From the NCBI RefSeq assembly GCF_013167455.1, contig NZ_CP038328.1: a DNA stretch of 64,000 nt; one strand, 5' to 3'. How positions within the stretch are numbered: the stretch's first letter is position 1; each line of letters starts with the position of its first letter. Source of the stretch: Escherichia coli O157:H7. GTDB lineage: Bacteria; Pseudomonadota; Gammaproteobacteria; Enterobacterales; Enterobacteriaceae. The position numbers are program-made. This document shows positions 1 to 3,000 of this stretch, in pieces.

Positions 1-3000
1 CACGCCCATACCTGGACCTGGGTTAGCTTCAATCAGGAAGAAGATTGATTTACCCAGTTCATGGGACTGCTGAATACCCAGCGGCGAGAAGATACCGTGG
101 TTAATGGCGTTGTTGAGGAACAGGATTTTCGCCGGTTCAACAAAGATAGACGCCAGCGGCAGCATGTCATGGACAACCATGAAGTTAACGCCCGCAGCCA
201 GCATTTTGGACAGGGTTTCAACAATCGGGCCAATGCCGAGGAATGCCAGAATAGCGAGGATCATCCCGATGATGCCTGCGGAGAAGTTATTCACCAGCAT
301 CTCAAAACCGGATTTGATCTTACCGTCTACCCAGCGGTCGAAGTGCTTAATGCACCAGCCGCCCAGCGGACCTGCAATCATAGAACCGAGGAACATCGGC
401 ATGTCTGCGCCGACGATAACGCCCATGGTGGTGATGGCACCGACTACGCCGCCACGTTCGCCGCCTACCAGCTTACCACCGGTATAACCGATCAGCAGCG
501 GCAGGAGATAAGTGATCATCGGCCCGACCAGCTTCGCCAGCGTCTCGTTCGGTAACCACCCTGTTGGAATAAATAACGCGGTGATGATACCCCACGCGAT
601 AAACGCGCCGATATTTGGCATCACCATGTTGCTGAGGAAACGACCAAAGCTTTGCACTTTGATCTTAATATCGGATGACATAAAAACACCCCTTCTTATG
701 TTTGCTGTCGCGCAGGCTGGAAGCCCGAGGTTTTTTGTTAATGTGGCGGCAGAGGTAGCCGGACCTTGTAGATACTGCGAAATCTGGCACTGAATCGGTT
801 AACTGTCCAGTCGACGGCCTTTTGTGTGATATCAATCACATAAATATAGGGGGTAGAGAGGTAATTGACGTGACGTTCATCACAAAACGCTTGTGTAAAA
901 AAGCAACAAGGCGGCGATTTTCGCTAAAAATGGCATTTAAATGTGAGTAGTGTCACATTTTTGTTTTGATGGTTTGTTGAATCTTTGTGATCTGAATCAC
1001 AAGATATTTTCTTACGGCGTTCACCTGATGTGATCTACAGCATGTTATGCCTTCGTCATACAATCGTTATGTAACTAAGCAACTCATCACCTCTAAAAAT
1101 TATTCTTTGGTGTTATGGCGAGAATCGCGAACCCGGATTATTGTCAAAATATCAGCCTGACTCCCTTCTGGCTGCCAGCCCAAAAACAACACTGATAAAC
1201 GTGAATCCGAGGCAGATATGTTTCTAAACTATTTCGCGTTGGGAGTGCTGATCTTCGTCTTTCTGGTGATTTTTTATGGAATCATCGCGATACATGACAT
1301 CCCTTATCTGATTGCCAAAAAGCGCAATCACCCCCATGCCGACGCTATTCATACGGCGGGCTGGGTGAGCCTGTTTACTCTGCATGTTATCTGGCCGTTT
1401 CTGTGGATCTGGGCGACGCTCTATCAACCGGAGCGTGGCTGGGGTATGCAGTCACATGTTGCGTCGCAGGAGAAAGCGACTGACCCGGAAATCGCCTCAC
1501 TTTCTGACCGAATTTCCCGGCTGGAGCATCAACTCGCCGCCGAGAAAAAGACTGACTATTCCACGTTCCCGGAGATCTAATTATGGATCTATTGATTGTT
1601 TTAACTTACGTGGCGCTGGCGTGGGCGGTCTTTAAAATCTTCCGCATTCCGGTAAATCAGTGGACGCTGGCGACGGCGGCGCTGGGAGGCGTGTTTCTGG
1701 TGAGTGGTTTGATTTTATTGATGAACTACAACCACCCTTACACTTTTACCGCGCAAAAGGCAGTGATAGCGATCCCTATCACGCCACAGGTGACGGGAAT
1801 TGTTACTGAAGTCACTGACAAGAATAATCAGCTTATTCAAAAGGGCGAGGTGCTTTTTAAGCTCGACCCGGTTCGTTACCAGGCGCGAGTTGACAGACTT
1901 CAGGCTGACCTGATGACGGCGACGCATAATATAAAGACGCTGCGTGCGCAGCTCACTGAAGCGCAGGCCAACACCACCCAGGTTTCAGCGGAGCGCGACC
2001 GTCTGTTTAAAAATTATCAACGTTACTTGAAAGGCAGCCAGGCGGCGGTGAATCCGTTCTCGGAACGTGACATCGACGATGCGCGGCAAAATTTCCTCGC
2101 GCAGGATGCGCTGGTGAAAGGCTCGGTGGCGGAGCAGGCGCAGATCCAGAGCCAGCTCGACAGTATGGTTAACGGCGAGCAATCGCAGATTGTGAGCTTA
2201 AGAGCGCAACTTACTGAAGCAAAATATAACCTTGAGCAGACTGTCATTCGCGCGCCGAGCAATGGCTACGTTACTCAGGTACTGATCCGCCCAGGTACAT
2301 ACGCAGCTGCCTTGCCGCTGCGTCCGGTGATGGTCTTCATCCCCGAGCAAAAACGGCAAATTGTCGCCCAATTTCGGCAAAACTCGCTGTTACGTCTGAA
2401 ACCCGGCGATGATGCGGAAGTGGTGTTTAACGCGCTACCTGGGCAGGTGTTTCACGGCAAACTGACTAGTATTTTACCTGTCGTGCCAGGCGGTTCTTAT
2501 CAGGCGCAGGGGGTATTGCAATCATTAACGGTCGTGCCCGGCACGGACGGTGTGCTGGGAACCATTGAACTGGACCCTAACGATGATATCGATGCCTTAC
2601 CCGACGGCATCTACGCCCAGGTGGCGGTTTACTCCGACCATTTCAGCCATGTTTCGGTGATGCGGAAAGTGCTGCTAAGAATGACCAGCTGGATGCATTA
2701 TCTTTATTTGGATCATTGAGGGGGAGGGGGGAGATTATGGAACTTTGCTCCTTGTAAGGACTAATTATTTTTGCATATTACTTCATTAGCTGCGATGATT
2801 TTTCTTTAATATTCATTATGTTAATAAGTTCTGGATGAGTGTGCTCTCATTGGATTTTTTATCCGTCTTGTTCTGCCGCAGGATGAGACTATACATCGTC
2901 GAGATCGCAATGATGATATGAGTTGTTCCTCCTGCGACGGCTCTAATCAAAAAAGAGCAGGAGTGCTTTTCCATCTATTGCGATGATGGCTTTATTATCT

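What the first reader, a model, noticed from the sequence alone, without database searches (positions are those of the whole stretch)
825..1044. Array of at least four near-consensus CRP sites upstream of mtlA
Four TGTGA-N6-TCACA palindromes (two of them perfect 16-mers) occur within 180 bp, plus further half-sites nearby. This fits the known multi-CRP architecture of the mannitol operon promoter, but the density is striking, and the region is shared with the divergent yibI gene, whose regulation is not described.
Basis: partly seen in the sequence, partly recalled or inferred. Interest (0 to 1): 0.2.

Follow-up and report, generated by a model that had tools for sequence, protein, structure and literature searches.

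The report
Known five-site CRP array of mtlA
This is the long-known control region of the E. coli mannitol operon: five binding sites for the sugar-starvation regulator CRP, whose exact spacing was recently shown to let the repressor MtlR dock onto DNA-bound CRP, so the finding is real but already explained.

Summary
Window 825-1044 holds five CRP sites between mtlA (minus strand, ATG at 681) and yibI (plus strand, ATG at 1218): 825-840, 942-957 and 986-1001 match TGTGA-N6-TCACA perfectly, 869-884 has one mismatch, and 1029-1044 is a 7/10 half-site. These are the only three exact matches in 64 kb (0.06 expected), and the four best sites are the four top PWM scores in the window.

Centre-to-centre spacings of 44/73/44/43 bp reproduce the published mtl operator exactly: CRP5 to CRP1 at -58.5, -102.5, -175.5, -219.5 and -262.5 from a TSS at window 774. 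The five sites were described by Ramseier & Saier (1995). Lee et al. (NAR 2026) showed that MtlR, which has no DNA-binding domain, docks onto CRP dimer pairs spaced 43-46 bp apart.

In 72 species, 50 keep the 44-45/72-74/43-44 quartet, whatever gene lies upstream. yibI was the neighbour in only 11. The array therefore belongs to mtlA.

Whether yibIH also uses it is untested. Kluyvera has yibI without mtlA or any CRP site, and conservation upstream of yibI starts only at window 1094.

Verdict: already known, low interest.

The parts
1..681 (-). 5' part of mtlA (PTS mannitol transporter EIICBA); the window starts inside the gene and the ATG is at 681
   Evidence: Sequence read. The region is annotated as mtlA in 5,400+ E. 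coli genomes.
682..774 (-). mtlA 5' untranslated leader (93 nt), running from the published transcription start (window 774) to the ATG
   Evidence: The TSS is placed by mapping the published site positions (-58.5 to -262.5) onto the window. It is inferred from the literature and was not measured here.
781..809 (-). mtlA core promoter: -10 CAGATT (781-786), 17-bp spacer, -35 TGGACA (804-809)
   Evidence: Read from the sequence. The geometry fits a TSS at 774. Both hexamers are conserved across genera.
825..840 (.). CRP5, TGTGATATCAATCACA, 10/10 core bases, centre -58.5; essential for mtl expression according to the literature
   Evidence: (18.2 bits). Chromosomal mutant data in Lee et al. 2026.
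869..884 (.). CRP4, CGTGACGTTCATCACA, 9/10, centre -102.5, 44 bp from CRP5; essential according to the literature
   Evidence: (16.3 bits).
942..957 (.). CRP3, TGTGAGTAGTGTCACA, 10/10, centre -175.5, 73 bp from CRP4
   Evidence: (14.8 bits).
986..1001 (.). CRP2, TGTGATCTGAATCACA, 10/10, centre -219.5, 44 bp from CRP3; the best site in the window and essential according to the literature
   Evidence: (19.8 bits).
1029..1044 (.). CRP1, TGTGATCTACAGCATG, 7/10 (one good half-site), centre -262.5, 43 bp from CRP2; dispensable for mtl and left unoccupied in EMSA when CRP2 and CRP3 are filled
   Evidence: (10.2 bits). Present in Enterobacteriaceae with or without yibI next door.
1034..1064 (+). Promoter-like element TCTACA-19-TACAAT pointing towards yibI; its -35 lies inside CRP1
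   Evidence: Listed for this spacer in the RpoD genomic SELEX table and located. The -10 is not conserved beyond E. coli, so its function is doubtful.
1094..1217 (+). yibI-proximal conserved block, starting at a -10-like TAAAAAT (1094-1100); probable yibI promoter -10 plus a leader of about 110 nt
   Evidence: Similarity to the Kluyvera yibI upstream region, which has no mtlA or CRP array nearby, begins exactly at 1094. The shorter urine-induced DFI insert maps to about 1074-1308. The promoter role is inferred.
1218..1580 (+). yibI (DUF3302 inner-membrane protein, 120 aa), divergent from mtlA
   Evidence: PF11742, E 2.7e-41.
1583..2719 (+). yibH (HlyD-family membrane-fusion protein, 378 aa), starting 3 nt after the end of the yibI ORF, so probably co-transcribed with it

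Best explanation
Window 825-1044 is the operator and activator region of the mtlADR (mannitol PTS) operon. Five cAMP-CRP sites lie upstream of the sigma-70 promoter (-35 TGGACA at 804-809, -10 CAGATT at 781-786, TSS at 774, minus strand). When cAMP is high, CRP dimers fill the four strong sites, and CRP5 at -58.5 acts like a class I activator site. The upstream sites CRP4, CRP2 and, to a lesser extent, CRP3 are also needed, probably for an architectural reason. The site density reflects two CRP pairs held at 44 bp (CRP4-5 and CRP2-3, with CRP1-2 at 43 bp as an alternative). At that spacing two DNA-bound CRP dimers are oriented so that a dimer of MtlR, which has no DNA-binding domain, can bridge them and repress transcription. 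Mannitol transport dephosphorylates EII-Mtl, which then holds MtlR at the membrane and relieves repression. Dephospho-HPr, formed in the presence of glucose, competes MtlR off EII-Mtl and restores repression. Shown here: the sites, their scores, their exact geometry and its conservation. Taken from the literature: CRP binding, MtlR docking, and the effects of site mutations. Inferred: the architectural role of the far-upstream sites.
For: Sites and statistics: 3 exact matches against 0.06 expected; the four top PWM scores of the 64-kb window; a cluster of 5 never approached in 500 shuffles. Geometry: centres at 832.5, 876.5, 949.5, 993.5 and 1036.5 give 44/73/44/43 bp, and positions -58.5 to -262.5 from window 774. 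These equal the published values. Site quality also matches the paper: CRP1 7/10, CRP2 and CRP3 10/10. Literature: five CRP sites (Ramseier & Saier 1995, cited); an MtlR supershift only on doubly occupied probes with 43-46 bp spacing; a malK operator converted to an MtlR target by resetting the spacing to 44 bp; chromosomal mutants of CRP2, CRP4 and CRP5 abolish expression. In vivo and in vitro occupancy: two ChIP-seq peaks in ETEC; the second most abundant SELEX clone set; rank 1 in PhyloScan. Conservation found here: 50 of 72 gammaproteobacterial mtlA upstream regions carry the quartet at 44-45/72-74/43-44 bp, and 39 carry exactly 44/73/44. Core columns are 0.95 conserved against 0.54-0.62 for the spacers, so length is kept but sequence is not. 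The region is present in 5,402 of 5,426 complete E. coli genomes.
Against: Nothing here contradicts this explanation. Four points remain open. (1) The MtlR docking model rests on one 2026 study, mostly in vitro (EMSA) with AlphaFold models, and the mechanism of repression itself is not resolved. (2) Why sites 175-220 bp upstream are essential is unexplained. (3) CRP1 is dispensable for mtl, yet it is conserved at 43 bp from CRP2 across Enterobacteriaceae. (4) CRP5 at -58.5 is 3 bp off the canonical class I position of -61.5.
Confidence: 0.93

Rival explanations
1. The array is a shared, bidirectional control region. CRP bound at CRP1/CRP2 also activates (or represses) the divergent yibIH operon, and MtlR docked on the CRP1-2 or CRP2-3 pair would then make yibIH respond to mannitol as well.
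For: ETEC ChIP-seq assigned one of the two CRP peaks (CRP2 and CRP1) to yibI. Shimada 2011 notes that both divergent promoters are often controlled by CRP bound in such spacers. yibH and mtlA rise together when glucose runs out in O157 Sakai (log2 3.78 and 2.84). yibI is induced in urine. If the yibI TSS lies about 7 nt after the TAAAAAT at 1094-1100, CRP1 sits near -70.5, which is close to a class I position. CRP1 is dispensable for mtl.
Against: The quartet is kept in 39 species with no yibI within 3 kb, and CRP1 is as strong in Enterobacteriaceae whose divergent neighbour is yibF (median 9.8 bits) as in those with yibI (7.2 bits). Kluyvera has yibI-yibH away from mtlA with no CRP site of 7 bits or more in 630 bp upstream. 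E. coli-Kluyvera similarity starts only at window 1094, which is 50 bp beyond CRP1. The paralogous pair yiaW-yiaV has no CRP site upstream. One urine-selected DFI insert (about 1074-1308) contains no CRP site. CRP1 stays empty in EMSA when CRP2 and CRP3 are filled. With the SELEX-predicted promoter (TSS about 1071), CRP1 and CRP2 fall at -34.5 and -77.5, which are not activating positions. The co-induction at glucose exhaustion could equally reflect RpoS.
Confidence: 0.27
2. The sites are only additive CRP activator sites (a plain class III promoter), and their 43-44 bp spacing has no role in repression.
For: This was the working view after Ramseier & Saier 1995. CRP is essential for mtl expression. 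Several site mutants lose activation.
Against: The spacings of 44 and 43-45 bp are held to within 1 bp across 50 species while the spacer sequences drift. That argues for selection on geometry. EMSA shows the MtlR supershift depends on 43-46 bp spacing and can be transferred to malK by resetting the spacing.
Confidence: 0.05
3. The cluster is a chance event or the product of a recent local duplication, with no function.
For: None beyond the presence of short direct and inverted repeats.
Against: The repeats are confined to the CRP cores, with no extended duplicated unit. The shuffle statistics exclude chance. The array is conserved across orders of Gammaproteobacteria, and binding has been shown experimentally.
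Confidence: 0.01

Closest known systems
E. coli mtlADR control region with five cAMP-CRP sites (Ramseier & Saier 1995; Lee et al., Nucleic Acids Res 2026, PMC13421365)
   Same: It is this region. The flanking genes, site sequences, site quality (10/10, 9/10, 10/10, 10/10, 7/10), spacings (44/73/44/43) and positions relative to the TSS are all the same.
   Different: Nothing of substance. The window sequence is identical over positions 600-1300 to O157:H7 and other strains rather than necessarily to K-12.
CytR-CRP repression complexes (e.g. deoP2)
   Same: A repressor achieves specificity by contacting two DNA-bound CRP dimers, turning the activator into a platform for repression. The authors themselves make this comparison.
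   Different: CytR has its own DNA-binding domain and operator between the CRP sites. MtlR has none and reads only the relative orientation of CRP dimers spaced 43-46 bp apart.
Multi-CRP divergent regulatory regions such as malEp/malKp
   Same: Several CRP sites lie in a spacer between divergently transcribed genes. The malK operator has four CRP sites.
   Different: In mal, both divergent promoters are known to use the array (my own knowledge). Here only mtlA use is shown. The malK spacing of 34 bp does not recruit MtlR.
Mlc sequestration by dephosphorylated EIIB-Glc
   Same: Derepression works by tethering the repressor to a dephosphorylated PTS transporter at the membrane.
   Different: This concerns the protein partners, not the DNA feature in the window. 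Mlc binds DNA directly.

Membership tests
mtl operon operator (five-CRP-site control region) | Lies immediately upstream of mtlA, which encodes the mannitol PTS EIICBA | tested here: met
   The mtlA N-terminus reads from 681 downwards on the minus strand. The region is annotated as mtlA in matching genomes.
mtl operon operator (five-CRP-site control region) | Five CRP sites centred at -58.5, -102.5, -175.5, -219.5 and -262.5, with spacings of 44/73/44/43 bp | tested here: met
   Centres at 832.5, 876.5, 949.5, 993.5 and 1036.5 relative to a TSS at 774, compared with the published values.
mtl operon operator (five-CRP-site control region) | Site quality pattern: CRP2 and CRP3 10/10, CRP1 7/10 | tested here: met
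   compared.
mtl operon operator (five-CRP-site control region) | cAMP-dependent CRP occupancy of the sites | not testable with these tools
   Literature only: EMSA, ChIP-seq, genomic SELEX.
mtl operon operator (five-CRP-site control region) | MtlR is encoded in the operon and docks on CRP pairs spaced 43-46 bp apart | not testable with these tools
   mtlR lies outside the window but is present downstream of mtlD in a genome matching window 600-1300 at 100% identity. Three of the four spacings here fall in the 43-46 bp range. Docking itself is known only from the literature.
mtl operon operator (five-CRP-site control region) | Architecture conserved in other Enterobacterales and Gammaproteobacteria | tested here: met
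   50 of 72 species carry the quartet at 44-45/72-74/43-44 bp. Salmonella has 44/73/44/43.
Class I / class III CRP-dependent promoter | A promoter-proximal CRP site near -61.5 on the same helical face, plus further upstream sites | tested here: inconclusive
   CRP5 is at -58.5, which is 3 bp from the canonical position. The authors class the promoter as class III. Activation geometry cannot be tested here.
Bidirectional CRP-controlled divergent promoter pair (mtlA and yibIH) | A second promoter facing yibI with a CRP site at a class I or class II position | tested here: inconclusive
   The yibI TSS is unknown. Candidate TSSs put CRP1 at -34.5 or about -70.5. The simple promoter scan found no site facing yibI.
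Bidirectional CRP-controlled divergent promoter pair (mtlA and yibIH) | CRP sites travel with yibI in evolution | tested here: not met
   Kluyvera yibI has no CRP site of 7 bits or more upstream. The array persists where yibF or another gene replaces yibI.
CytR-type CRP-bridging repression | The repressor has its own operator DNA between the tandem CRP sites | not testable with these tools
   [quoted passage not shown] Spacer sequences are not conserved (0.54-0.62), which fits the absence of a repressor operator. The system works like CytR but is not a member of that family.

The most novel reading that the evidence does not exclude
The weak fifth site CRP1, possibly together with CRP2, may serve the divergent yibIH operon. 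CRP1 is dispensable for mtlA, yet it is kept 43 bp from CRP2 throughout Enterobacteriaceae. If so, yibIH (a DUF3302 membrane protein plus a HlyD-like fusion protein of unknown function) would be under cAMP-CRP control and possibly MtlR/mannitol control. That would give MtlR a second target, contrary to the current view that the mtl operon is its only one.
Probability: 0.2. Interest if true: 0.3.

Novelty: already known. Interest (0 to 1): 0.08.

Why it matters
As a discovery it matters little. The five CRP sites have been in the literature since 1995, and the reason for their density and spacing was published in 2026. The region remains a good textbook example of an operator defined by the geometry of another protein's binding sites rather than by a repressor-binding sequence. 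The cross-species data here independently support that view: spacing is held to within 1 bp while the spacers drift. The only open question is whether the poorly characterised yibIH operon, which is urine-induced and whose deletion mutant was outcompeted by wild-type UPEC in human urine (competitive index 0.33), uses the same array.

Tried and rejected
- **Rfam scan:** a scan of 600-1300 at E up to 1 gave no RNA family, so there is no known riboswitch or sRNA in the spacer.
- **Promoter scan:** the simple sigma-70/terminator scan gave no informative promoter on either side; its single hit spans the mtlA start codon region (675-702, plus strand) and is within chance expectation, and it missed the real mtlA promoter, which has weak hexamers.
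- **Repeat search:** direct and inverted repeats are limited to the CRP cores, so the idea that the array arose by duplication of a longer unit was rejected.
- **SELEX-listed promoter:** TCTACA-19-TACAAT (1034-1064) was considered as the yibI promoter. It was downgraded because its -10 is not conserved even in E. albertii or Citrobacter, and because one DFI insert lacks it.
- **SigmaE-like reading:** a sigmaE-like reading of GTAACT...TCTAA around 1071-1096 was considered and dropped, because by my own reading of the sequence the spacer is 2 nt too short.
- **CRP regulon paper:** Zheng et al. 2004 is not held in the library.
- **Technical problems:** a first-order Markov simulation timed out and was replaced by base shuffles. 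Loci from the genome scan were not visible to Python, so they were passed through an alignment.

Full report
**What is in the sequence.** The window begins inside mtlA, which runs on the minus strand with its ATG at 681. yibI (1218-1580) and yibH (1583-2719) run divergently on the plus strand, leaving a 536-bp spacer at 682-1217. Positions 600-1300 are 100% identical to several E. coli genomes. The stretch is present in 5,402 of 5,426 complete genomes and is annotated there as mtlA and yibI (a DUF3302 protein). Pfam confirms that YibI is DUF3302 and YibH is a HlyD/CusB-type membrane-fusion protein.

**Checking the observation.**
- The exact pattern TGTGA-N6-TCACA occurs three times in 64 kb, all in this region: 825-840, 942-957 and 986-1001. 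Dinucleotide-preserving shuffles expect 0.06 matches.
- 869-884 has one mismatch, and 1029-1044 matches 7 of the 10 core bases.
Otherwise the description and coordinates are accurate.
- I built a PWM from 103 in vivo CRP sites in the ETEC ChIP-seq table, leaving out the four mtlA/yibI sites.
- With it, the four strong sites are the four highest scores in the whole window (19.8, 18.2, 16.3 and 14.8 bits), and CRP1 scores 10.2 bits.
- Five sites of at least 10 bits lie within 220 bp, whereas 500 base shuffles never gave more than two.
- Repeats in the region are confined to the CRP cores, so the array is not a duplicated longer unit.

**Identity with the published operator.**
- The site centres (832.5, 876.5, 949.5, 993.5, 1036.5) are 44, 73, 44 and 43 bp apart.
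- Lee et al. (Nucleic Acids Res 2026, PMC13421365) give CRP1-CRP5 at -262.5, -219.5, -175.5, -102.5 and -58.5, with spacings of 43, 44, 73 and 44 bp.
- Mapping these values onto the window places the TSS at 774 on the minus strand.
- This fits a -10 CAGATT at 781-786 and a -35 TGGACA at 804-809 with a 17-bp spacer, read directly from the sequence.
- The paper's statement that CRP1 has 7 of 10 conserved bases and that CRP2 and CRP3 have all 10 also matches.
- The five sites were first reported by Ramseier & Saier 1995 (reference 37).

**How it works (from the literature).**
- CRP is essential for mtl transcription.
- MtlR has no DNA-binding domain. It supershifts CRP-DNA complexes only when two adjacent sites are both occupied and are 43-46 bp apart.
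- The 73-bp CRP3-4 pair does not recruit MtlR, but it does once the spacing is shortened to 44 bp. A malK operator becomes a target when its 34-bp spacing is reset to 44 bp.
- Chromosomal mutations of CRP2, CRP4 or CRP5 abolish expression. A CRP3 mutation reduces it slightly, and CRP1 is dispensable and poorly occupied.
- Induction works by sequestering MtlR on dephosphorylated EII-Mtl at the membrane. Dephospho-HPr competes with this interaction and so gives glucose preference.
- The authors compare the system with CytR-CRP and with Mlc-EIIB-Glc.
- Independent genome-scale studies had already flagged this spacer as an outstanding CRP target:
  - It was the second most abundant clone set in genomic SELEX.
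  - It gave two ChIP-seq peaks in ETEC.
  - It ranked first in PhyloScan.

**What I added: comparative anatomy.**
- I collected mtlA upstream regions from 72 species.
- Fifty carry four sites of at least 8/10 at spacings of 44-45, 72-74 and 43-44 bp, and 39 carry exactly 44/73/44.
- These species include Enterobacteriaceae, Yersinia, Serratia, Pantoea, Erwinia, Pectobacterium, Hafnia, Aeromonas, Tolumonas and some Vibrionaceae.
- In the 39 exact cases the 40 core columns are 0.95 conserved, against 0.54-0.62 for the spacers. Length is kept while sequence is not, as expected if geometry is the selected feature.
- Salmonella shows 44/73/44/43.

**Does the array belong to yibI as well?**
- In the 72-species set, yibI is the divergent neighbour in only 11 species.
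- Three further genera found through YibI homologues also have it: Salmonella, Raoultella and K. oxytoca.
- In many other Enterobacteriaceae the divergent neighbour is the GST-like gene yibF, and the quartet is unchanged.
- The weak CRP1 site is specific to Enterobacteriaceae, but it is no stronger where yibI is present (median 7.2 bits) than where it is absent (9.8 bits).
- Kluyvera provides a natural experiment. There, yibI-yibH-yibF-selA lies next to yibT/yibL/lldP with no mtlA, and no CRP site of 7 bits or more occurs in 630 bp upstream.
- Similarity between E. coli and Kluyvera upstream of yibI begins exactly at window 1094 (TAAAAATTA) and runs to the ATG.
- The unit that travels with yibI is therefore 1094-1217. 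It is probably a -10 element plus a leader of about 110 nt, and it is separated from CRP1 by 50 unconserved bases.
- The paralogous pair yiaW-yiaV in the same window (18148-19613) has no CRP site upstream.
- Two urine-selected promoter-trap inserts from UTI89 map to about 889-1369 and about 1074-1308. The second contains no CRP site, although it may be a partial read.

**Evidence that keeps yibI co-regulation alive.**
- A ChIP peak was assigned to yibI.
- yibH and mtlA are induced together at glucose exhaustion.
- yibI is induced in urine.
- If the TSS follows the TAAAAAT, CRP1 would sit near -70.5, close to a class I position.
- By contrast, the promoter listed by RpoD SELEX (TCTACA-19-TACAAT, 1034-1064) would put CRP1 and CRP2 at -34.5 and -77.5, and its -10 is not conserved outside E. 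coli.
- I found no direct test of yibI regulation in the searchable literature.

**Verdict.** The feature is already known, and its unusual density and spacing have a recent mechanistic explanation. The array is an mtlA feature. Its use by yibIH is possible but unproven, and the comparative evidence leans against it.

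Noticed in passing
window 893-912 (between CRP4 and CRP3): An element in the 73-bp gap is conserved across 39 species (consensus tGT..ttTTtTTacAc). In E. coli, in mtlA orientation, it reads CTTGTTGCTTTTTTACACAAG: a 5-bp inverted repeat around a T-tract. It scores poorly as a CRP site. It could be the Fis site or an intrinsic bend, but no assignment was made.
   Followed up: partly
window 790-803 (spacer of the mtlA core promoter): CTGAATCGGTTAAC resembles half of the Cra/FruR operator consensus as I recall it. It is conserved across genera. This fits the literature statement that Cra represses mtl, though no coordinates were available to confirm it.
   Followed up: partly
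window 1094-1217: A conserved block upstream of yibI, shared with Kluyvera where mtlA is not adjacent. It starts at a -10-like TAAAAAT and includes GGTG(T)TATGGCGA(G/A)AAT and CGTGAATC motifs. It is possibly a structured leader of about 110 nt. There is no Rfam match.
   Followed up: partly
window 1070-1083: The motif TGTAACTAAGCAAC is conserved in most yibI-adjacent genera but not in Citrobacter or Kluyvera. It lies where a -35 or activator site would be for a TSS near 1107. Its function is unknown.
   Followed up: no
window 18148-19613: A paralogous gene pair, yiaW-yiaV, is 75% and 77% identical in protein sequence to YibI and YibH. It lies in the same window downstream of aldB, behind an AT-rich spacer of about 540 bp with no CRP site. 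yiaW, yibH and mtlA all rise at glucose exhaustion in O157 Sakai.
   Followed up: partly
window 50082-50097: The fifth-best CRP PWM score in the window (CGTGACCAGGTTCACA, 14.5 bits) lies inside the 5' part of the bisC coding sequence. It may be an intragenic CRP site or a chance match.
   Followed up: partly
window 4796-9025 and neighbours: A 1409-aa ORF on the minus strand corresponds to an RHS element core protein. The matching O157 genome also has a frameshifted Imm57 immunity gene and an RHS fragment between yibH and yibG. In Salmonella, Klebsiella, Raoultella and Kluyvera, yibH is followed directly by yibF-selA, so the rhs element is an insertion in Escherichia.
   Followed up: no
mtlA/yibI spacer (position not given in the paper): A 1-bp insertion in this spacer became fixed in a 1,200-day stationary-phase evolution experiment. 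MtlR docking tolerates only 43-46 bp, so its exact position would be worth knowing.
   Followed up: no
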